Assembly: GCA_964016885.1 (NCBI GenBank)
Contig: OZ024742.1
Location: 249,178,001-249,242,000, forward strand
DNA: 64,000 bases
DNA from: Eledone cirrhosa
Taxonomy: Eukaryota
Direction of reading: 5' to 3'
Shown here: positions 19,844 to 64,000 of the stretch, piece after piece
Position numbering within the stretch: position 1 is the first letter of the stretch
Layout of the letters: every line of letters begins with the position of its first letter
Program-made: the position numbers and the translations under genes
Notes under the pieces: generated by a model
The model's input: only the letters and a program-made list of their open reading frames with translations
What the model was told of the DNA's origin: nothing
Database searches by the model: none

Positions 19844-19894
19844 ACATTCTACAGAACTGGAACTGTTTCATTCTTTAGAAATCATCAGGAATCT
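19844..19894 (-). ncRNA. Type I hammerhead ribozyme (family of 26907-26957)
   Basis: rc agattc-CTGATGA-tttctaaagaat-GAAA-cag ttccagtt ctg-TA-gaatgt. Confidence 0.82.
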
Positions 19895-19974
19895 GGCTTC
19901 CAAAATAAATGTTGTGGTATTTTATATATATATATATATATTTGTGTATGTGTATGTGTGTATATATATATATA

Positions 19975-21290
19975 TGAGACGTTCAACAACACGGACGAGA
20001 ACATTGACTTCAGTGTTGAACACCCCCAACGAAGACGGGTCACTTTCCCTCCTCGACTTCCGAATCAACATCACGGAACAGGGAAGGATCCACTGCAACT
20101 TCTACCGAAAGGCAGCCTGCAGGGACCTGTTCGTTCACTACAAGTCCGCCCTCCCTAACAGTGCGAAAAGAGGATACATCACGAACGAGATCGCGCGAAT
20201 CAAAAACAGATGCAGCGATCCCACGAGTGGTATCACTCATACCAAGCGATTCCTCGAGGTGCTGGAGACGAACGGGTACCCTATCTCGATCACAGACAGA
20301 ATAGGAGACACACGACACAAGAGACAGAGAGGCACCCAAGGCAAGTGCTTCCTTAAAATGCCACACCTGGGCGAGAATACCACCAACGCTATCCGCAAGG
20401 CTATACGGAGGGATGGCCTCGACATCCACCTGGCCACTCGGGCCCCTCCCTGTGAAGATGCCTCTCCAGGAAACCCGGGAAATCTACTGACGCATGCTCC
20501 CTCAGAGACTGCCCGATACGCCATGCGAACTGTTGCCTACGAACATACGTCGTGTATAAGATAGAATGTGACAGGTGCAACCAATACTACATAGGTAGCA
20601 CAATCCAACCTTTGCACATCCGGATCAAGGAACACACTAAAACCAGGGCCTCGTCTTTCCGGAAACACATAGATAAATGCGGAAACAAAGACGGAAGGCC
20701 CATTGTCACAATTCTAGCGACTGAAAGAAACATCGGCACGTTACGTATCAAGGAAGTGCTTTTTATCAAACGCCAGCAACCGCAAATAAACAACCGATCA
20801 GAGAGAAGCGAAATGAGATGGCTGGTTTAAGTTAACAAACGATGCAGCAACACACAACACACGCACACACACAAACGAGACAACTACACACACACAGGCA
20901 CACACACACAGTAGCATTCCACCATACGAACATACTACACTGCCAATACAGAGGAACAAGGCAACAACACACGCACACACACATACACTCAAGCGAGACA
21001 ACAACACACGCACACACACAGTAACACTTAACAAACAGGCAGAGAATGGACTGACAGCTAGCGCCACCCAACTCTCTCATTCGGCCGCTGACCTCTGCCC
21101 GACCGACCTCATTTCACGCGCACGCGCGCTCTGCCGAATACCTCAGATATTCAAAACAACAAACAGCGGAGGACGCGTTTCGCACCTGTCCAACAGACAA
21201 CCTTTCCCCCACCCCGGAAAAAACCCCAGTTGATGGATGTGAATCGGAAATATATAGGGACTATTAAATCTCTCCCAAAGTAACTCTCTC
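19975..21290 (+). mobile_element. Penelope-like element, 5'-truncated (RT thumb + GIY-YIG + 3' pLTR region)
   Basis: SLSLLDFRI..FYRKAA..HYKSALP..NGYP (19914-20564). VYKIECDRCNQYYIGST..RIKEH..KEVLFIKRQQPQIN (20552-20830). Confidence 0.92.
21224..21259 (+). ncRNA. Decayed minimal hammerhead of the Penelope pLTR
   Basis: ccc-CAGTTGA-tggat GTGA atcg-GAAA-tata-TA-ggg. The core has 2 substitutions. It lies ~400 nt after the GIY-YIG stop and is followed by ATTAAA. Confidence 0.55.
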
Positions 21291-22563: not shown

Positions 22564-22623
<60 letters not shown>

Positions 22624-22742
22624 AGGTGAGTTTTATTGCAGCACAATAAAGCAATGCAAATATCGGATAAGTAGCACTCAACAGTTTATAGGACTGGAGT
22701 ATAAATAATATAAAATCAAAAGATGGTTCAAAGAGTTCCATG

Positions 22743-22813
22743 TATTTTATTATGTGCATTTCAAAAACAAATATCATCATGGGATGATATTTGCGTTCTC
22801 ATCAGATAAAATA
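22743..22813 (-). ncRNA. Minimal type I hammerhead in the downstream pLTR
   Basis: rc tattttat-CTGATGA-[gaacgcaaatatcatc cc atgatgatatttgttttt]-GAAA-tgcaca-TA-ataaaata. Stem I is 8 bp. Confidence 0.85.
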
Positions 22814-25523
22814 GGGGGACATGATATGAAGCTTAAAAAACACTTGCGAGCAGTGAAGTGTTAAATCAACATATGAAAAATAAAATAAGAGGGATAGATG
22901 AGATTGGAAAAAAGGAAAGGAAGGGGGAAAGAAAAGGTAAGGAAGAGGGAGAAAGAATATAGATAGAAGAAAAAAATATAATAATAAGGAAAGGATGACG
23001 GAGGAGGAGTATAAGAAAGAAGGAGGAGAGGGGAGATGAAAATGAGTGAGTGAGAGAGATAACCTTTAACATTGTGAAACACTGTCTCACAGAGAAAAAT
23101 AAAAAAAAACCGTTGTAAGATAATACATAATTTAAAAAAATTAAGAAATTAAAAGTTAATGAGGTTTATGAATGTGGATGCTTATGATTAAAGAAAAAGG
23201 AATTAAGATTACTATTTATTTAAAGGGTTTAATAAGATGTGCGAAAAGGAATTTATTAAAATGTATTATTAAAATAAAATATATTAAGAAGATAAGGTGA
23301 ATGAAGATAAGGTTAAATGAATTATGAACTTAGAGGAATTATTTAGGGTCCAACTTTGTTTCTATATATTGTAATAGGAAAAAGTAAATAATAGATTTAA
23401 TACGAACATGGAAGGAGAGAAGAATGAAAAATTCAAGGAAGAAAAATATATATAACGTCAAAAAAATATGTTTACAAAATTTCTCTCATGGTAATGTTAG
23501 TATATATTAAAAATAAAAATGTGTATGGCCGAGAATATAAGGAAAATGCTATAGTGAATTGTAAGATGAATTAAGAAGTAATTAAATAGTAAAAGTTGCA
23601 GATTAAAGATTATAAATTCAAAAAGAAGGAAATTAGGAGACCGCTAAAGATATAGTATGAGTAATATTGTATAATATACTGAAATAAGGTACAAAGATGG
23701 GTATATTTATAAAAAATATAAAAGTGTTTGAGAAAAAAAGATTTTAAACTAATTAGGTAGTAAGAGCTGTATACTTTGTGGAAAGTTCTATGGAAGTTAT
23801 GCAAGCAGAGCAAAAATAAATCCGTACGTATATTTATTATAGAATTAAAATTAGAGATAATGGTAAATTTCTCCGCTAGGCAGAGATTACATGTTCTGGA
23901 TAGGGAAGATTTAAGGTAAGGAGAGGCGTTGCAAACCTTTCTCCAAGAAATGTTGTAGTTAATATTGTTGTCCTTTAAGGACCATATGAGTTCTGAGAGT
24001 GCTGTGTTAGTTCTTTTAAGTTGGTATTTAAAAGAAGAATTGTGATTATAAAATCTTGCCTTAAAGGAAGTGGAAGTGGAACCAAAATAGGAAAAAGAAT
24101 TAGTACCTTACATTCATACACTAAATTGTTATCAAGACGTTGGTTACTAGGAGGAGATTTAGTTCTAATAGGGCAATTGCAATACGATTAGAGAAATCAC
24201 CAGAGTTATTAGCAAGTGATCCAGTATATTTATAGAAGGAATTGGATTGGAGAAGTTACTTACGATAGGTGCTAAAGTTTCCTGATTTAGATTGGTATTA
24301 TGAACATTCGACAAAGTTACGTTTGACGTCGTATTTAAATTTATGGAATCTAGCCTAGAGTTAACATTGACGTCGGGCTTACTATTGTTATTATTATGAC
24401 GCTCAGTGTTGGATGGATATGATTTATTACTTAATATTTTAGTATTATGTTTTGAGATAATGTTAGAGATGTTGGAAGTGGTGGAATAATATAATTTAAT
24501 TGTATGCTTATTAAAGATCTTACTATAAATATGTAAAGGAGGGAAGCATTTATCTAAGGCCCTAAAAAATAGTTTAGGAATATTACTAATAATAGATAGA
24601 GAAAAAGGAGCGTTCTACCAAATTATGTTTTTATATCTAGGTCTTTTTGTATGCTATTGGAATGCTTATAACTAACTATATTACTATAAGTTCCTCCATG
24701 ATTGGTTTCTTTACTGTATTTAATTTTGTCAGGATAACCGGCTCTGGGAAGCGCATTGTTGTAATAATTGGCTTTAGCGTCAAGATAAGTTTATTAGAAG
24801 ATAGATTTGAGATTCTTTTTTTCAATATTACTGACTATAGCATTTTTAACGTTAATAGGGTGGTTAGATTTAAAATTAACATAATTTAGATTCTCATTGT
24901 CTTTATGGTAAGGGTAATATAGGCCGGTGTCAAAGAAGTTAGCTAGTTTGACGTTGTTTTCAAATTCAATTTTAAGGTTATAGTGCTTAAATAGATCAAG
25001 TATATTATTCTTAATAATATTAAGGTTAACAAAGTTACAGTTTAAGACAGTAAAAAGGGCATCGTCACGATAAATTCTACCGCGAAGTTGAGGAATTTTC
25101 CGATTTAAAGAATTCAAAATAAAGATTCCAATCAAGTCCGTCAATTGCGCTGAATCTGACGAACCCATTGTGATATCAAAATTGTTGGAAGTATCAGCTC
25201 TAGTCCAATATTCGTTGTTGAATTCCAGGATAGTTTTTCTTGCGGTGAGAATGATGTACAGTTCATCTGTGGTGATGTCAGAATATTTAAATGCAAAAGA
25301 AAGAGTGTTGTTGAGGAGTGAAGGCGAAATAGAAGAGTAGTAACTGGCAATGTCAAACTAAATAATTTTTTGTTTGTTTTTTTATTCAGGTCATTGAACC
25401 AGTCAATTATATCAGATGTACCAATCCATAAATTTAAGTTAGAAATAGAGCAATTAGAACGAACCTGTGGGATAATTCTATCGAAGATGGATTTACTAAC
25501 AACCCCCAGGTTTTATATGATTT

Positions 25524-25609
<86 letters not shown>

Positions 25610-25639
25610 AGATCAAAAGATGGTTAAAAGAGTTCCAAG

Positions 25640-25707
25640 TATTTTATTATGCGCATTTCAAAAACAAATATCATGGGATGATATCTGCGTTCTCATCAGA
25701 TAAAATA
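25640..25707 (-). ncRNA. Minimal type I hammerhead in the upstream pLTR (palindromic TGCGCA)
   Basis: rc tattttat-CTGATGA-stem II-GAAA-tgcgca-TA-ataaaata. Confidence 0.85.
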
Positions 25708-26594
25708 GTGAGACATGATATGAAGCTTAAAAAACACTTGTGAATAGTGAAGTTTTAAATCAACATATGAAAAATAAATTAAGATTGATGTATGAGATTG
25801 GGAAAAAAGTGAGGGGGGAGGTTGGAAAAGGTAAGGAAGAGGAAGAGATGAGAGTAAAGAATAATGGGGGAGGAGTATAAGAAGGAAGGATGAGAGAGGA
25901 GGAGAGATGGGTGATAGAGAGAGAGAGATAGCCTTTACAACTAAGAAAAATATATATATTATCTCACAGAGAGAAATTAAAAAGCCGTTGGAAGATAATT
26001 GATAATTTAAAAGATTTTGAAATTAAAAGTTAATGAGGTTTATGCATGAAGAAAAAGGAATTAAGAATAGTATTAAATTAAGGTTTGTATATAGAAGGGT
26101 TTAATAATATGTGCGAGGAAAAGAATTTATTAATATGTATTGTTAAAATAAAAATAAAAATATTAATGTTATTAAGGATATAATGTGTTAAGAAGGAGAA
26201 GAATGAATGAGTTATGAATTTAGAGGAATTAGTTAGGGTTTAAGTTTGTTTTTATGTAATGTAATATGTGTACGTAAATAGTTTGTTTAAAAATGAGCGC
26301 GGAAGGAAAGAAGAAAAGAATGTTTAAGGAAGAAAATATCTAACATCAAAAAGTATATATGTTTACGAAATATTTTCTAATGGTAATAATATAATATATT
26401 AAAAGAAATTAGTTAGGGTTTAAGTTTGTTTTTATGTATTGTAATATGTAAAAGTCAAACTAAGTACTAGTTTAAAACGAGCATCTTTTGATGTTATATT
26501 ATTTATACTCCAGTCCTACAAACTGTAGAGTGCTACTTATCCGATATTTGCATTGGTTTATTGTGCTACAATAAATATTGTAGCACAATAAACC

Positions 26595-41404: not shown

Positions 41405-43670
41405 GTGGTTGAACACTATATCCGTGGTAAGTAGAGCACTCAGTGCGTGGGAGGAGTTTAGTATAATGTTAGTTCCGCAAAAGTTTGCAAACCATATTTC
41501 ACCTCGAGTTAAAAATCCACTAGGTGAAACACATATCGTCGAAAACGGTTGTGGAGCTAACTTTATATATATTATATATGATGATATGAACCGACATCCT
41601 AAAACCAAGTAGACGCAAAGCAAATAATTTCCAAGCCTCTAACAAGGACATACCACACTTGTATGGACTCCGCAAAGACCATAAAACAACTAACGACCCT
41701 ATCACATGACAACCAACAAGACCTGTATGCGGAGCCAATATTGCTAGCAACTACAGTATACCTTACTTCCTCTCTATGATCGTACGCCCCATAATTAAGA
41801 TGTCCCCAGATGTATGTGACAGCACAGAGGACCTCCCCAGCACAATCAATGAGTGCAACAACGAAGACTTAACAAACTGCATAATAGACATTATGGATGT
41901 TGTGACCCTATACCCTGTGTGGAAATAATCAATGAGAGTGAGGTAGAGTTCTATGACGTTGATACGGATGAACTGGGTCTCCTATTTAGACTTAGATGTG
42001 ACAATGAATTCTTAAATAATTACGACCTTAGTAGTTTCTGCCGCAGTAGACCAATAACAGGTATACCCCCGCCCCACCATAACTTCAATGGTTAAAAGAC
42101 TCCCATGGAAAGATGGAATGGGTGGACCAAAGTCATACGGACACTCAAGAACAACGATCAGGTGTGAAAAAATGATCGCACATGCGGTAGGGGCTAGTAT
42201 TAAAACTACCCTAAAGGGCCTCATGTTTAAATTTAATGAGAAAATTTACACTCAGGATGAGAAAGCAGCCATTGGTATCAGCATAGCTAGTGATGTTGCC
42301 AACCTATTTTATGTTATCGTGGGAAATGAGACTCAGAGTACGTCTCGCATAGAACTCCATAGCCCTCGTCATGTACTCTCGTTACGTAAATGATATCAAT
42401 AGAGTAATAAAAACACCCCCACAACAGAGTACCAATTAACCCGATTTTGAAACTAACACAATGGAGAGCATCCAGCAAATAGCTAATTCCATACACCAGA
42501 TCATAACAGTAACTATCGACTACTCTTCCAAACAACCTAACAATAGACTAATAGTACTAGACACAGAACTTTAGTTAAACAATATAAACGAGAAAACCCA
42601 AATTCTCCACTCACATCATGCTAAATCCATGGCCTTCAAATACCTTATACAAAAACCTCAGAGATGTCCAATAGTGCTAAGTTTAATATTCTGATCGCAG
42701 ACTTGATAAGAGTGATGAAGAATGTGACCCGCAAGTGTAATTCAACTGAACTGGAGAGACACGTACAACACTTCATCAATCGCATGCAGTTCTCTGGCTA
42801 CAACCAAAGAGATAGAATCAGTGTATACAAAGGAGCCACGGAGAAATATGTCTTCAAAGAGATGAATATGAAAGGAATTTGCCCATTGTACAGGAGCAAA
42901 TCATGGAATAGCATAGATAGGACTAAACATAAGATAGGGAAAGCCACTTCATGGAACGAAAACCAGAGACACCAGAGTGTCATGTTCGTGGATACAACCC
43001 CAGGAGGTGAGTTATCTATCCAATTTAGAAAGGCCCTAAGAAAGACGCATTTAAAGATTAAAGTGGTAGAAAAGCCAGGAACTACCATCAAATCCCTGAT
43101 CAGCAAAACTTATCCCTTTAAGAAAACCCACTGTACTAATAGGAAATGTGTTATATGTAGAATAAACTCACGGCTAATAATTCGTAAAACTAGAAATGTA
43201 GTCTATAGCAAAAGATGTACAGAGGGCAATTGCAGAAACATGACAACGATATACATAGGTGAGACAGCTTGGTGCATAGAGGAGGGATAGACCAACACTG
43301 GGGGGAACTAAAAGGACAAAAAGACGGTTCGGTACAACATGAATACGCCAGACGAAGACATGATGGTAAAATAGACAACATAGAAATTAAAATAATATCT
43401 AAACATAGAAATGACTTAACAGGTAGACAAATCAGAGAGGCAACTGAAGTAGAACTAAGAAAACCGAAGTTGAAGAGAAAAAAATGAATGGAATAACAAC
43501 AACAACCATACACGAACATACAATAGTGACCTAAGATAAATATAAATGAATATACATAGGTACAATATCAATCACATATAAACATACAACGGATAAACTT
43601 ACAACGAGTGGAAGTATAATAGTATCACTGCTGATGCCACAGGTGTGTGATGAAAGAAATTTGATAGACC
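41405..43670 (+). mobile_element. Penelope-like element, decayed (RT + GIY-YIG + HHR)
   Basis: PHLYGLRKDHK..RPVCG (~41650-41735), FKFNEKIYTQ..AIG, RYVND (~42380), FSGY, and RNVVYSKRC..C..IYIGET (42664-43290). Confidence 0.9.
43623..43666 (+). ncRNA. Decayed minimal hammerhead at the Penelope 3' end
   Basis: tatca-CTGCTGA-tgc cac aggt gtg tgat-GAAA-gaaatt-tgata. A6 is replaced by C. Confidence 0.6.
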
Positions 43671-45310: not shown

Positions 45311-45982
45311 GCAAATATCGGATTTCGGCTGTGGTCGAAAACAAAGCGAAACGCAATATCCGAGTTATGCTGGCAAGCGCTCCATGGATCAATAAAGACC
45401 AGAGCAATAAACATAGGTTATAAAGGCCATACAAAGTGAGACGGCCGTCAAGAAGCCATCAACCACCTAAGCCAAAAAGACGAGGCAAGCCAAACAGGTC
45501 AAAGAAAATAATTGAATATTTACCCGGACCCGTGGAAAAGATGGTATAATCAAGTAAAGGGTTTCTGCGACACCTAAATCAATTATACTGCCTGCTTAAA
45601 TAATAAGCTTTTGGTATAATGATCGAACAAAGCTGTGACTTCGTATTTTGGTATTTTGTTCTACGCCAGCATGCTGGATCACACAGTGGTATGTAGTAGT
45701 AAAACCACGTGTGTAACTCAGCAAGGGAGAAAACACCAGATTATGGCAGATGAATTAAGTAAGTGTAAAATTAATGCAATAATTGCAAAATGTACACAAA
45801 TCGAATTAATGTCTCGACCGAGTAGTTTTTAAAATAAACTTAAGCAATTAATCAGTGAATAGAATTATCTAAAAAAATAACTGGTTAATTGCTAGACCCG
45901 GGAGATTAATACAAATATAATTTCAGCGAGATCGGATTTCGGCTGTGGTCGAAAACAAAATATATATATATATATAATGTAC

Positions 45983-46095
<113 letters not shown>

Positions 46096-46119
46096 TATAG
46101 TATGTATATATAAATATAC

Positions 46120-46640
46120 TAATAAAAAAGCCAGTTTATTGTAGTTATTTTAAAGTTTATTGATTACATTTTTACAGTTATATATATTTCGATGTTATCT
46201 ATTACGTAATAGATAGGATCTCATCAGGCAGCTATTGTATAAACGTGTACCTAATGTGTGATATGTCCCAGGCATGTTTTGATGTTAGTCAACTACGACC
46301 CGGTTAGGGTTAGGATTCAGTAAAAGACATTCAGCTGTCATCACTAGTTAGGCGTGTTGATGTATCTGATTGGTTGATTCTCCCTACTCATCATTCCATT
46401 TTTGTTAAATGTTAATTTGACCTAGATGTCAGAATTGGTCCCGTGATCGTTCAGAAATGTTACTTTTGAAGTAAACTTGTTCAGTGAAGGGGTATGTTTT
46501 TCTTCACATTTGATTGATTTATGAAATTACTTTCATTGTGCTTCAAAGTCTCGCTATTTGGGGTTGTTTGGTGATAAATCTGACTGGTATCCTAGAATAG
46601 AATGATTATTTATGTTTAGTGGGATGTCTTATTAAAAACT
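46120..46640 (-). mobile_element. Penelope-like 3' end / pLTR relic
   Basis: rc ..ESNFINQ..PSLNK (GIY-YIG C-terminus-like), then CCAATCA, the HHR and AATAAA. Confidence 0.55.
46173..46236 (-). ncRNA. Minimal hammerhead with a palindromic stem II
   Basis: rc gc-CTGATGA-gat cc tatctatt acgt aatagata ac atc-GAAA-tatata-TA. Stem I is weak. AATAAA lies downstream. Confidence 0.72.
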
Positions 46641-46711
46641 TAGTTTGTACCAAATATATATATATATATATACATATGTATACACATATACACACACACA
46701 CATACACACAA

Positions 46712-46741
<30 letters not shown>

Positions 46742-46743
<2 letters not shown>

Positions 46744-46960
46744 CATCATCATCATCATCGTTTTTACGTCCATCTTCCACGCTAGGATGGGTTAGACGGT
46801 TTTGTTCTATTTGATGCGTGAATGGTCGGGAGACCATGTCTCGCTCGCACGGAAGCGTCTCTGGCACGTTTTGCTTACAGCTGGATGCCCTTCCTAACAC
46901 CAACCACATTTACGGTATGGACTGGGAGCCTTTTCACCATGTCTCCTACACGGCCACCTT
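46742..46960 (-). mobile_element. RTE-related SINE-like 3' portion with (ATG)n tail
   Basis: rc GGTTGGTGTTAGGAAGGGCATCCAGCTGTAA..CCGTCTAACCCATCC..GGACGTAAAAACGATGATGATG. Confidence 0.65.
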
Positions 46961-47079
46961 ACAGTGTAGACTGTTGAGTCATCGATACAGTGGACAGAAC
47001 GGGAGAGGGGGGATAGGGTAGGGTGTGAGGTGGGGTGTACATTGGGTTAAGAGGTGCCTACTGACTGTAGGTTTCTATG

Positions 47080-47700
47080 CAATGGCAGTCGGGTCTTCTG
47101 GACAACTGCATGGTGCCAAAGGTCTCGATCCAGTGTCATTGTCTTAAGAGAGGTGTAAGTGAGCAAGGTCAGTTTTTATCACCTCGTCCCAGGTTTTTCT
47201 TGGTCTACCCAGTCCGGAGCTTCCATCAATTTTCATTGCCCTGCACATTTTTATACAGCTGTCGTCCTTCATACGCATCACATGTCCATACCAACGCAAT
47301 CTCCTCTCCAGAACACATTTGATACCTCTTAAGCTTAGTCTCCCTCTTAATTCGTTTACACTTCGCCTTTCGCGCACCTTACTACTATTACACATCCATC
47401 GGAGCATGCAAGATTCATTTCTTTCTAATCTACACAGGTCTTCAGCACACAACGCCCAGGTTTCACTACCATGTAATATCGCCGTTCGTATACATCATAC
47501 AATCTGCCTTGCATTTTTAGAGAAAAAAAACATATTGGCCAACAGCGGTATTAGCTCTCTGAACTTTTTCCATGCCGCTCTAACTCTGGCTACTACACTT
47601 TCAGAGCACCCTCCTCTACTGCTGATTTTGTCACCCAGGTAACGGAAGGTGTCTACTATTTCTATAGAACCATCTGGGCAGTTGAAGGAGATATCAACAG
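47080..47700 (-). mobile_element. RTE LINE 3' fragment
   Basis: TFRYLGD (~47630-47655), HGSETW, RRLRWYGHVMR and GRPRKTWDEVI (47144-47452). Confidence 0.9.
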
Positions 47701-47735
47701 CCCATAATATATATATATATATATATATATATTAT

Positions 47736-48039
47736 GTAGATAAATCTACCAAGAGTTTACGGTAGTGTCCAATCCGTATGAAGAACTCAATGTAATCCGG
47801 ATATCATGGAAAGAAGAGATGCAATGAAAAATCACTTTCGGTGAAAGATAAACGGAATACAGAGTCAAGATAAAATATTAAAAAAATAATGAATAAAACA
47901 ATGAAACAGTTCCTTATATTAAACAAAAAAAGTTCATTATTTAACGATCGTTTCTAGGATATATATGTGTTAGAATTGGCATGCATATTCAACAGATCTA
48001 TGTACAAAATTATACAAAATTATACAAACTATCAAAATT
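47736..48039. repeat. Dispersed repeat in (TA)n; longer, colinear version of 16288-16501
   Basis: See 16288-16501. Confidence 0.85.
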
Positions 48040-48152
48040 AAATATACATACCAAACACATATATATATGCCGTCTTCAGAAATAATAATATATATATATA
48101 TAAATTATTCAGAATATTAATAAATGAAGACATTCACATAATCAAAATATGC

Positions 48153-48212
48153 TTTATTATATATATTTCGAAGGTACTGTGCTGTTTTTTCAGTACGTCC
48201 TCGTCAGATAAA
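48153..48212 (-). ncRNA. Minimal type I hammerhead (CUGACGA)
   Basis: rc tttat-CTGACGA-gga c gtactg aaaaaacagca cagtac c ttc-GAAA-tatata-TA-ataaa. Confidence 0.82.
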
Positions 48213-48365
48213 ATACATGAATTGATGTATGACATACCTCAACGGTATTGATGGCTCAATTCCAGTACTGCCAATACTGGAATTGAACCATCAAGACAGT
48301 TGAGGTATGTCATACATCAATTCATGTATTTTATCTGACGAGGACGTACTGAAAAAAACAGCACA
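48178..48365. repeat. Near-perfect ~90-bp hairpin with a 7-nt loop, overlapping the hammerhead
   Basis: 48178-48267 is the reverse complement of 48275-48365. Loop CTGCCAA. Confidence 0.93.
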
Positions 48366-48402
48366 ATTCATTGAGTAATCAATGAACCATATTAATCTTT
48401 GG

Positions 48403-48469
<67 letters not shown>

Positions 48470-48550
48470 TATACAGACATACATATATCTCAAGTATCAT
48501 GTACTCTGATAGGAATGGTGTAACTAGTTTAAAACGGGTTCTATCCTCAA

Positions 48551-48585
<35 letters not shown>

Positions 48586-48600
48586 GTTTTAATATAGATG

Positions 48601-48650
48601 AGATTCTACAGGACTAGAACTGTTTCATTCTTTAGAAATCATCAGGAATG
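48601..48650 (-). ncRNA. Type I hammerhead (third copy of the 26907 family), ~65-bp insert in (TA)n
   Basis: rc attc-CTGATGA-tttctaaagaat-GAAA-cag ttctagtc ctg-TA-gaat. Confidence 0.82.
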
Positions 48651-48741
48651 TATATATATATATATATATAAAGTATATATAAATGTGTACGTGTATATAT
48701 ATATATAAAGTATATATAAATCTGTACGTGTATATATATAC

Positions 48742-48792
<51 letters not shown>

Positions 48793-48819
48793 CGCGTGTG
48801 TGTGTGTGTATGTGTGTGC

Positions 48820-61469: not shown

Positions 61470-61591
61470 AACCCTTTCATTTTATCCTCTTCCCCCTTTA
61501 ATAATAATGCAGCAGATAGACAAAATAGATCCACACACACATCTCCTTACAGATATATATGTACAGTTAAATATAAGTATATGTAAACAGA

Positions 61592-62302
61592 TTGATGGTG
61601 GTGGTAGCTGAGGTGGTGTTAAGGCTAGCAGATGGCTCGCTGGTGGTGGTGGTGATGCAGCTAATGGTGGACTTGGTGATGGCGTCGGTGTTGATGGTAA
61701 GGATAATGGCTGGTGGTGGTGTTGTTGTTGTTGTTGGTGGTGGTGGTGTTGGTGGTGGTGGTGGTGGCGTTCGTGGTGGTAGTGTTGTTGTTGTTGTTGG
61801 TGGTGGTGTCGTTCGTGGTGGTGGTGGTGGTGGTGGTGTTGTTGGTGGTGGTGTTGTTGGTGGTGGTGGCGCTCGCGGTGGTGGTGGTGTTGTTGTTGTT
61901 GGTGGTGGTGGTGGTGGTGCTCGTGGTGTTGGTGGTGGTGGTGGCGCTCGTGGTGGTGGTGTTTTGTTGCTGTTGTTGGTGGTGGTGGCGTTCGCGGTGC
62001 AGGTGGTGTTGTTGTTGTTGGTGGTGGTGGTGGTGGTGGCGCTCGTGCTGGTGGTGGTGGTGGCGCTCGTGGTGGTAGTGTTGCTGTTGTTGGTGGTGGC
62101 GCTCGTGGTGGTGGTGTTGTTGGTGGTGGTGGCGGTGGTGGCGATCGTGGTGGTGGTGTTTTGTTGTTGTTGTTGGTGGTGGTGGCGTTCGCGGTGGTGG
62201 TGGTGTTGTTGTTGTTGCTGGTGGTGGTGGTGGCGCTCGTGGTGGTATTGTTGTTGTTGTTGGTGGTGGTGGTGGCGGCGCTCGTGGTGATGGTGGTGGT
62301 GG

Positions 62303-62333
<31 letters not shown>

Positions 62334-64000
62334 GGCGTTCGTGGTGATGGTGGTGGTGGTGTTGTTGTTGTTGGTGGTGGTGGTGGTGTTGTTGTTGTTG
62401 GTGGTGGTGGTGGTGGTGGTGGCGCTCGTGGTGGTGTTGTTGTTGTTGTTGGCGGTGGTGGTGGCGCTCGTGGTGGTGGTGTTGTTGTTGTTGTTGGTGT
62501 TGGTGGTGGTGGTGGCGCTCGTGGTGGTGTTGTTGTTGTTGTTGGCGGTGGTGGTGGCGCTCGTGGTGGTGGTGTTGTTGTTGTTGGCGGTGGTGGTGGC
62601 GCTCGTGGTGGTGTTGTTGTTGTTGTTGGCGGTGGTGGTGGCGCTCGTGGTGGTGGTGTTGTTGTTGTTGGCGGTGGTGGTGGCGCTCGTGGTGGTGTTG
62701 TTGTTGTTGTTGGTGGTGGTGGTGGCGCTCGTGGTGGTGGTGTTGTTGTTGTTGTTGGTGTTGGTGGTGGTGGTGGCGCTCGTGGTGGTGGTGTTGTTGT
62801 TGTTGTTGGTGTTGGTGGTGGTGGTGGCGCTGGTGGGTGTGTTGTTTTTGGTGGTGGTGGTGGTGGCGCTCGTAGTGGTTGTGGTGGTGTTGTTGTTGTT
62901 GTTGGTGGTGGTGGCGGTGGCGCTCGTGGTGGTGTTGTTGTTGTTGTTGTTGGTGGTGGTGTTAGTGGTGGTGCTGTTGTGGGTTGTGGTGGTAGTGGTG
63001 GTTGTGGTGGTAGTGGTGCCCGTGGTGTTATTGCTGGTGGTGTTGTTGGTTGTGGTGGTGGTGCTGTTGGTTGAGGTGGTAGTGGTGGTGGTGGTGTTAG
63101 TGGTGGTGGTGCTGTTGGTTGTGGTGGTAGTGGTGGTAGTGGTGGTGGTGGTGTTAGTGGTGGTGGCGTTGTTGGTTGTGGTGTTAGTGGTGGTGGTGCT
63201 GCTGGTTGTGGTGGTAGTGGTGGTGGTGCTGTTGGTTATGGTGGTAGTGCTGCTGGTGGCTGTAGTGGTGGTGGTGGTGTTGGTTGTGGTGGTAATGGTG
63301 GTGGTGGTGTTAGTGGTGGTGGTGCTGTTTGTGGTGGTGGTGGTGTTAGTGGTGGTGGTGCTGTTTGTTGTGGTGGTAGTGGTGGTGGTGGTGTTAGTGG
63401 TGGTGCTGTTGGTTGTGGTGGTAGTGGTGGTAGTGGTGGTATTAGTGGCCGTGGTGTTGTTGTTTGTGGTGGTGGTGTTAGTGGTGGTGGTGTTAGTGGT
63501 GGTGGTGCTGTTGGTTATGGTGGTGGTGGTGTTAGTGGTGGTGGTGCTGTTGGTTATGGTGGTGGTGGTGTTAATGGTGGTGGTGTTAGTGGTGGTTATG
63601 TTAGTGGTGGTGTTAGTGGTGGTGGTGTTGTTGGTTGTGGTGGTAGTGGTGGTGGTGGTGTTAGTGGTGGTGGTGTTAGTGGTGGTGGTGCTGTTGGTTG
63701 TGGTGCTAGTGGTGGTCGTGGTGTTAGTGGTGGTGGTGCTGTTGGTTATGGTGGTAGTGGTGGTGGTGGTGTTAGTGGTGGTGGTGTTGTTGGTTGTGGT
63801 GGTAGTGGTGGTGGTGGTGTTAGTGGTGGTTGTGTTGTTTGTTGTGGTGGTAGTGGTGGTGGTGGTGATGGTAGTGGTGATGGTATGGTAGTGTTAGTAG
63901 TGGTGTTGTTGGTTGTGTGGTATGGTGGTTATGGTATAGAGTTGTTAATAGTGGTATAGTATGGAGTTGTTAACAGTCGTGTTGTTGTTGGTTGTGGTAG
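61592..64000. repeat. Long (GGT/GTT)n trinucleotide-derived low-complexity array with GGCGCTCGT-punctuated higher-order units
   Basis: Direct reading. The poly-V/L/G ORFs are a consequence of the repeat. Confidence 0.92.

What the first reader, a model, noticed from the sequence alone, without database searches (positions are those of the whole stretch)
48153..48365. Hammerhead overlapped by its own antisense arm
Seen: a complete minus-strand HHR (48153-48212) whose 5' half and upstream sequence are duplicated in inversion, forming a ~90-bp hairpin with a 7-nt loop. In a minus-strand transcript the antisense arm is made first and would sequester CUGACGA. Inference: a snap-back (self-primed) reverse-transcription product that also silences the ribozyme and could be a Dicer/ADAR substrate or DNA cruciform.
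Basis: partly seen in the sequence, partly recalled or inferred. Interest (0 to 1): 0.75.

Follow-up and report, generated by a model that had tools for sequence, protein, structure and literature searches.

The report
Head-to-head Penelope retrotransposon end pair
This hairpin is two back-to-back ends of a Penelope-like jumping gene, one long and one short, an arrangement repeated at dozens of other places in the genome and likely left when both strands of the target DNA were used to copy the element's RNA; trapping of the ribozyme is probably a side effect.

Summary
The hairpin and the hammerhead are real. They belong to a high-copy Penelope-like (PLE) family with Hydra-clade protein motifs. 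The locus is a head-to-head pair of pseudo-LTR (pLTR) ends inserted in (TA)n, a structure already described in print. The same 7-nt-loop junction occurs at 58 places, so it is not a one-off chimera. Across the family, pairs join one long ('tail') end to one short end (53 of 62 pairs, none long+long). Arms start preferentially at an initiator-like site 30 nt behind a TATA box and share subfamily. In 20 of 52 pairs neither arm is a subset of the other, which a snap-back copy cannot give. Best reading: both target strands prime reverse transcription at two internal sites of the uncut 5' leader, and the cDNA ends then join. A brief snap-back may seed the junction. The arm would block the ribozyme in a read-through RNA, but the insert has no promoter, is decaying, and expression is untested. 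This is an ordinary dead copy; the family-level rule is the useful part.

The parts
48088..48102 (.). (TA)n target, left side
   Evidence: sequence
48104..48267 (-). Short arm: element positions +9 to +174 (+1 = inferred start site), ending at the short end, with the whole hammerhead
   Evidence: locus L213 is this window
48152..48213 (-). Type I hammerhead motif: core 48207-48201, stem II 48200-48170, GAAA 48169-48166, palindromic loop III 48165-48160, predicted cut between 48158 and 48157
   Evidence: not found by Rfam; activity untested
48178..48267 (.). Left stem of the hairpin
48268..48274 (.). 7-nt loop, element positions +2 to +8 of the long arm; recurrent junction
   Evidence: 58 exact matches genome-wide, reversed-pattern control 0
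48275..48365 (.). Right stem of the hairpin
48267..48405 (+). Long arm: element +1 to +98/99, then a 132-nt deletion at 48365/48366, then +231 to +270 (tail end). Holds only the 5' half of a hammerhead (core at 48335-48341)
   Evidence: deletion junction found once in the genome
48404..48473 (.). (TA)n target, right side
   Evidence: sequence

Best explanation
The locus is a decayed head-to-head pair of Penelope-like pLTR ends, one long and one short, in a (TA)n target, likely made when both target strands primed reverse transcription on the element's uncut 5' RNA leader and the two cDNA ends then joined. Shown: family membership, the two fixed ends (+176 and +268/270), their pairing one-to-one, the 5' hot spot at +1, subfamily concordance of arms, and that both end sites lie inside full-length elements upstream of the ORF. 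Inferred: (1) +1 is the transcription start; (2) the GIY-YIG nuclease nicks both strands of (TA)n; (3) one primer starts at +268, the other at +176, most likely on one RNA or on RNAs from one source copy; (4) both cDNAs run off at or before +1; (5) they join through the imperfect palindrome in the first 9 nt, either by direct end-to-end annealing or after a short snap-back extension of one cDNA end; (6) the 132-nt deletion is a private later or insertion-time event. Blocking of the ribozyme is predicted only for read-through RNA and is incidental.
For:: 1543 candidates in the genome (40 scored); 62 head-to-head pairs among 110 loci: 53 long+short, 6 long+other, 2 short+other, 1 short+short, 0 long+long; 61 of 84 distinct anchor sites had such a partner; 50 of 104 arm starts at -1 to +8, 2 of 104 near the ribozyme cut; 20 of 52 pairs non-nested; 8 pairs overlap by 24 nt or less; TATATAAA at -32 to -25 in 33 of 47 matches (loci not de-duplicated); exact-junction loci with both ends classed: 18 long-at-+1, 12 short-at-+1, 1 long+long, 1 short+short, of 56 examined; arms in the same subfamily in 43 of 44 classable loci, 1 borderline, none A with B; private variants in one arm 75, in both 4; self-duplex of the cDNA end -5.2 kcal/mol against +3.1 to +4.2 for its hairpin; the tail runs on into the ORF in 11 of 30 loci fetched by ORF start; second family shows the same pattern (11 of 12 pairs long+short). 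PMC11167929 (main text read): a PLE protein nicks and extends both strands, starts at two internal RNA sites that match the tail, and needs no ribozyme cut.
Against: No biochemical or RNA data for this family. For this one locus (long arm at +1) snap-back plus later deletion cannot be excluded. L029 and L173 carry short sense pieces that only the long arm's own cDNA could template unless a later deletion occurred, and L204, L207 and L032 have fold-back extensions. A crossover between arms could flip the loop and turn one junction type into the other. Central deletions of palindromes could create non-nested pairs. Samples are top BLAST hits, two of three sets anchored on the tail, and BLAST starts over-extend at palindromic junctions. 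24 of 56 exact-junction loci were not classed automatically. In vitro, PMC11167929 saw no strand preference for start site, so the one-long-one-short rule has no biochemical support yet. The second family has the TCA initiator but no TATA box.
Confidence: 0.7

Rival explanations
1. Snap-back: one target-primed cDNA (long end) reaches +1, folds back and copies itself; the copy is cut or joined at +176. Loop flips and central deletions later produce the other forms.
For: Arms always share subfamily. Self-priming was proposed for such head-to-head palindromes in PMC3846280 (passages seen). Short fold-back pieces at L029, L173, L204. Short+short loci L191 and L199 have mirrored flanks.
Against: 20 of 52 pairs non-nested, 8 with overlap of 24 nt or less, several with the short arm starting at +1 to +3. 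12 of 30 have the tail on the would-be copy. The 9-nt hairpin primer is unfavourable. Joining by microhomology would favour the TATATA of loop III over +176, yet ends sit at +173 to +176.
Confidence: 0.15
2. Two separate insertions, or a later rearrangement, brought two pLTR ends together back to back.
For: PLE ends cluster in (TA)n; several families sit within 3 kb here. L017 has arms differing at three shared variant sites.
Against: No target DNA lies between the arms. The exact junction recurs at 58 places. No pair mixes subfamilies A and B although both are common (19 AA, 21 BB).
Confidence: 0.06
3. The hairpin is a selected regulatory RNA that silences the ribozyme or feeds small-RNA or editing pathways.
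For: A 90-bp duplex is predicted in any read-through RNA (-165 kcal/mol).
Against: Arms differ at 3 of 90 sites, like the family average of 3.7%. Private deletion. No promoter in the insert. Rare A-to-G changes in arms (3.7 per 1000 A) are no more frequent than other changes.
Confidence: 0.06
4. Assembly or library fold-back chimera.
For: No read or contig spanning the whole stretch was found; L191 and L199 look like fold-backs with mirrored flanks.
Against: The arms differ by 3 substitutions, an indel, a 132-nt deletion and their 3' ends, and have unrelated flanks. The junction recurs on many contigs.
Confidence: 0.03

Closest known systems
Inverted pLTR pairs with a one-sided tail in EN+ Penelope-like elements (Adineta vaga Pen2a, PMC3846280; review of structure in PMC8557442)
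   Same: Head-to-head inverted pLTRs, tail on one end only, TATA box plus TCACT initiator-like motif, palindrome at the junction, AT-rich targets.
   Different: Here the insertion is only the two pLTR ends; the tail is about 94 nt rather than 30-40 nt; that paper proposed self-priming, which the non-nested pairs here do not fit as a general route.
Poseidon PLE of Anolis (PAc, PMC11167929)
   Same: Two internal start sites bounding the tail, located 3' of a hammerhead near the ORF start; uncut RNA as template; AT-rich target.
   Different: Different clade. The main text I read does not discuss inverted pairs or exclusive pairing of the two sites, and reports no strand difference in start site.
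Hydra clade of C-terminal EN+ PLEs (PMC8557442, section 11 read)
   Same: RW(R/K), DKT, CxCx5C linker, CxxC and CxH around the EN's E and N, canonical hammerhead, (TA)n insertion.
   Different: No tree was built; element length not measured exactly and may exceed the <3 kb typical of the clade.
LINE-1 twin priming (recalled, not read here)
   Same: Two target-strand primers on one RNA give an inversion.
   Different: In L1 the two pieces mostly do not overlap and the internal site is not fixed; here both sites are fixed and arms often overlap by up to 176 nt, which needs the RNA to be copied twice.
Metazoan type I PLE hammerheads (PMC4209133)
   Same: Short stem I, long stem II, minimal stem III with palindromic loop; dual motifs 100-700 bp apart on opposite strands were noted there.
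   Different: A C-Y mismatch at the fourth position of stem II is shared by three families in this window; I did not check whether it is described.

Membership tests
EN+ Penelope-like element | RT followed by GIY-YIG endonuclease in one ORF | tested here: met
   Linked copies encode RT pieces with a Y(R/G)DD motif and a C-terminal YIG-containing domain. Support from libraries is weak: Pfam RVT_1 E=0.019, no GIY-YIG hit; Atlas clusters at 0.92-0.97 with RVT_1 in 11-27% or GIY-YIG in 11% of members. All copies seen are broken.
EN+ Penelope-like element | pLTR present both before the ORF start and after the ORF end | tested here: met
   3' of EN; 5' of ORF in 11 of 30 loci.
EN+ Penelope-like element | Inverted 5' pLTR and one-sided tail | tested here: met
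Hydra clade | RWK-like, DKT, CxCx5C linker, CxxC/CxH motifs | tested here: met
   Read by eye in translations; RWR in place of RWK.
Hydra clade | (TA)n targets and canonical hammerhead | tested here: met
Hydra clade | Placement in the clade by RT phylogeny | not tested
   No reference sequences were fetched.
Type I hammerhead ribozyme | Core CUGANGA, GAAA, NUH with three stems | tested here: met
   N7 varies C/T and a stem II G-U becomes G-C in one lineage. Rfam models do not detect it.
Type I hammerhead ribozyme | Self-cleavage | not testable with these tools
   Monomer fold is marginal (-1.2 against -10.2 kcal/mol for the alternative); only 2 of 104 arm starts lie near the cut site.
Snap-back (self-primed) duplication | One arm is a subset copy of the other | tested here: not met
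   As they stand, each window arm holds sequence the other lacks; only a later deletion would rescue it for this locus. Family-wide 20 of 52 pairs fail.
MITE or miRNA hairpin | Terminal inverted repeats with fixed TSD, or Rfam miRNA match above threshold | tested here: not met
   Arms are unequal retroelement ends; miRNA matches at 48228-48313 score far below gathering.

The most novel reading that the evidence does not exclude
Penelope inverted ends obey a one-long-one-short rule because a dimeric RT-nuclease engages two fixed internal sites on a single uncut leader RNA, one per target strand; both cDNAs run off at the transcription start and are joined by a palindrome encoded in the first 9 nt, so each insertion is a two-primer event that seeds the genome with promoterless 90-170 bp hairpins.
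Probability: 0.45. Interest if true: 0.6.

Novelty: new member of a known kind. Interest (0 to 1): 0.38.

Why it matters
The locus itself is a dead, ordinary copy. The family data bear on an open question: how Penelope-like elements make inverted ends with a one-sided tail. Papers seen here propose self-priming (PMC3846280) or nuclease resolution (PMC8557442) and call for mechanism. The counts here tie the two in vitro start sites of PMC11167929 to a near-strict pairing rule in two families, and give a direct in vitro test. If many such hairpins lie in transcribed regions, they would also be a bulk source of double-stranded RNA, which is untested.

Tried and rejected
Rfam: no hit at gathering score in the window; only sub-threshold microRNA and snoRNA matches at E up to 10 in 45900-48800. 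Pfam on broken ORF pieces: nothing above cut-off. Sequencing runs: no RNA holder listed, which says nothing about expression. Laying four DNA or unlabelled runs showed the family is abundant but no piece spanned the stretch, so the locus itself is not read-confirmed. Spliced-form idea for the 132-nt deletion: junction is unique and the deleted stretch does not end in AG. Ribozyme-cut RNA as template: 2 of 104 arm starts near the cut. ADAR hypermutation of templates: no A-to-G excess, at most 3 per arm. Post-insertion homogenisation as the cause of arm similarity: private variants are mostly unshared (75 vs 4). The intermolecular energy evaluation of a fixed 8-pair structure returned an invalid value and was not used; the duplexfold value was. 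Earlier scan notes: none found. Literature searches for twin priming or two-strand priming as the cause of PLE inverted ends gave no paper stating it in the listings or passages seen; subscription papers and supplements were not seen and may do so.

Full report
Observation. The window holds a hairpin with arms 48178-48267 and 48275-48365: 87 matches, 3 substitutions and one 1-nt indel, around a 7-nt loop at 48268-48274. On the minus strand, 48213-48152 has the layout of a type I hammerhead, with a predicted cut after 48158. Rfam does not detect it. Three other motifs in the window (46227, 25699, 22805, all minus) share the layout with different sequences: three pairs then a C-Y mismatch in stem II, a long distal stem, and a loop III that is palindromic in two of them. 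I take the ribozyme motif as real and its activity as untested.

What it belongs to. The sequence has 1543 candidate matches in the 3.0-Gb genome (40 scored). Longer copies continue upstream into an ORF with RT and C-terminal GIY-YIG-like pieces. Library support is weak, but the motifs RWR, DKT, CxCx5C, CxxC and CxH match the Hydra clade of Penelope-like elements as described in section 11 of PMC8557442. I numbered the repeat on one real copy (L023), with +1 at the A of TCACT. The hammerhead core starts at +69, copies end at +176 (short) or +268/270 (long), and both ends abut (TA)n. In 11 of 30 loci fetched by the ORF start, the long end is not an end: it runs on into the ORF. So the pLTR plus tail is also the 5' leader of the element's RNA, and both end sites are internal in it.

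Anatomy of this locus. The minus arm is +9 to +174 with the short end (48267-48104). The plus arm is +1 to +98/99, a 132-nt deletion, then +231 to +270 with the long end (48267-48405). The deletion junction occurs once in the genome. It removed the second ribozyme's 3' half and shortened what would have been a stem of about 165 bp to 90 bp.

Family survey. Among 110 loci from four searches there were 62 head-to-head pairs: 53 long+short, 6 long+other, 2 short+other, 1 short+short, none long+long. Two of the search sets were anchored on the tail, so long+long pairs would have been easy to see. After dropping one duplicate (L042), 50 of 104 arm starts lay at -1 to +8 and 2 near the ribozyme cut; BLAST over-extends a few bases at these junctions. 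TATATAAA lies at -32 to -25 in 33 of 47 matches. PMC3846280 reports the same TATA plus TCACT arrangement in a rotifer pLTR. Some junctions carry repeated pieces of +1 to +20 (L083, L085, L171), as expected if the enzyme sits at the physical end of its template. I infer that +1 is the transcription start and that templates were uncut. A second family in the window behaves alike: of 12 pairs, 10 are long+short, 1 has a long arm cut slightly short, 1 is complex with two long ends (read from the table; the script's own short-end threshold was set too low). Its 5' hot spot is also the A of TCA, about 70 nt before the core, but without a TATA box.

Snap-back or two primers. A snap-back copy must be a subset of the first arm. 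In 20 of 52 pairs the short arm starts 10 nt or more upstream of the long arm, while the long arm has the tail, so neither contains the other. Eight overlap by 24 nt or less. The window's exact junction occurs at 58 places in 56 loci. Of 32 loci with both ends classed, 18 have the long arm at +1, 12 the short arm at +1, 1 is long+long and 1 short+short; 24 were unclassed because of deletions, insertions or repeated starts. By eye most of 19 of those printed also pair long with short, and one more is short+short with mirrored flanks (L199). Arms share subfamily in 43 of 44 classable loci with 1 borderline, although two subfamilies are equally common, while private variants are mostly unshared (75 vs 4). 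So both arms come from one RNA or one source copy. The first 9 nt form an imperfect palindrome: two cDNA ends can pair at -5.2 kcal/mol, whereas the hairpin costs +3.1 to +4.2. Replication of such a heteroduplex would give both junction types, as seen.

Against this reading. L029 and L173 have short sense pieces that fit a brief fold-back on the long cDNA, and L204, L207 and L032 have extensions on both ends. So snap-back may seed the join even if the arms are primed separately. Recombination between arms could flip the loop, and central deletions could make non-nested pairs. For this single locus snap-back plus deletion cannot be excluded. L017 has arms differing at three shared sites, so two RNAs may sometimes be used.

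Ribozyme silencing. In a minus-strand read-through RNA all seven core bases pair with the arm, and forcing the hammerhead costs 55 kcal/mol. But the monomer fold is marginal on its own, a PLE minimal hammerhead showed no monomer cleavage (PMC4209133), and the PAc ribozyme cut only with protein and was not needed for insertion (PMC11167929). The insert begins at +1, so it lacks the TATA box. Arm divergence matches neutral decay in the family. No A-to-G excess was seen. Expression is untested (one search listed no RNA holder).

Comparison with print. Head-to-head pLTRs with a one-sided tail are described (PMC3846280, passages; PMC8557442, passages and section 11). Opposite-strand dual hammerheads were noted (PMC4209133, first part and passages). 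Two internal start sites and extension of both strands were shown in vitro (PMC11167929, main text and part of methods). A preprint on retrozymes (10.64898/2026.07.22.740005, passages) did not address inverted pairs in what I saw. Four searches showed no paper stating exclusive long+short pairing by two-strand priming; supplements and subscription papers were not seen.

Verdict. Real, known in kind, and a dead copy. The transferable result is the pairing rule and the two-primer model, at about 0.7 for the general mechanism and 0.45 for its strict one-RNA form. Interest 0.38.

Noticed in passing
window 46172-46235 (-): Another type I hammerhead motif with the same layout (long stem II, C-C mismatch at position 4, loop III TATATA) but a decayed stem I; probably a pLTR of another PLE family.
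   Followed up: partly
window 22621-25760 (-): Second PLE family: a short-ended pLTR copy (core 25699) in (TA)n, then a 5'-truncated broken RT-EN body and a long-ended pLTR (core 22805). Same long+short rule in 11 of 12 genomic pairs; some junctions are perfect palindromes around ATAT.
   Followed up: yes
window 48587-48645 (-), 26913 (+), 19888 (-): Three copies of a repeat with a minimal hammerhead-like core next to (TA)n; likely a third PLE family.
   Followed up: no
window 47737-48085: High-copy repeat directly left of the short end, with (TA)n junctions at about 47737 and 47870 in laid reads, suggesting another family with a long and a short end.
   Followed up: no
window 19845-20830 (+) and 42625-43290 (+): Broken ORFs with YIG-like endonuclease motifs, by eye further Penelope-like remnants.
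   Followed up: no
L191, L199 (G000:C8:26246242; C15:25112461): Short+short hairpins whose flanks are mirrored too; later fold-back duplications, true snap-back products or assembly artefacts.
   Followed up: partly
L118, L120, L124, L125: Asparagine-rich stretch between RT and EN, recalling the N-rich inserts in rotifer PLEs described in PMC3846280.
   Followed up: no
L116, L119, L124: Long insertions also pair a short end with a long end in inverted orientation, 2.7 to 9 kb apart.
   Followed up: partly
window 61482-64000: Long low-complexity GGT/GTT-rich array with extreme strand skew.
   Followed up: no
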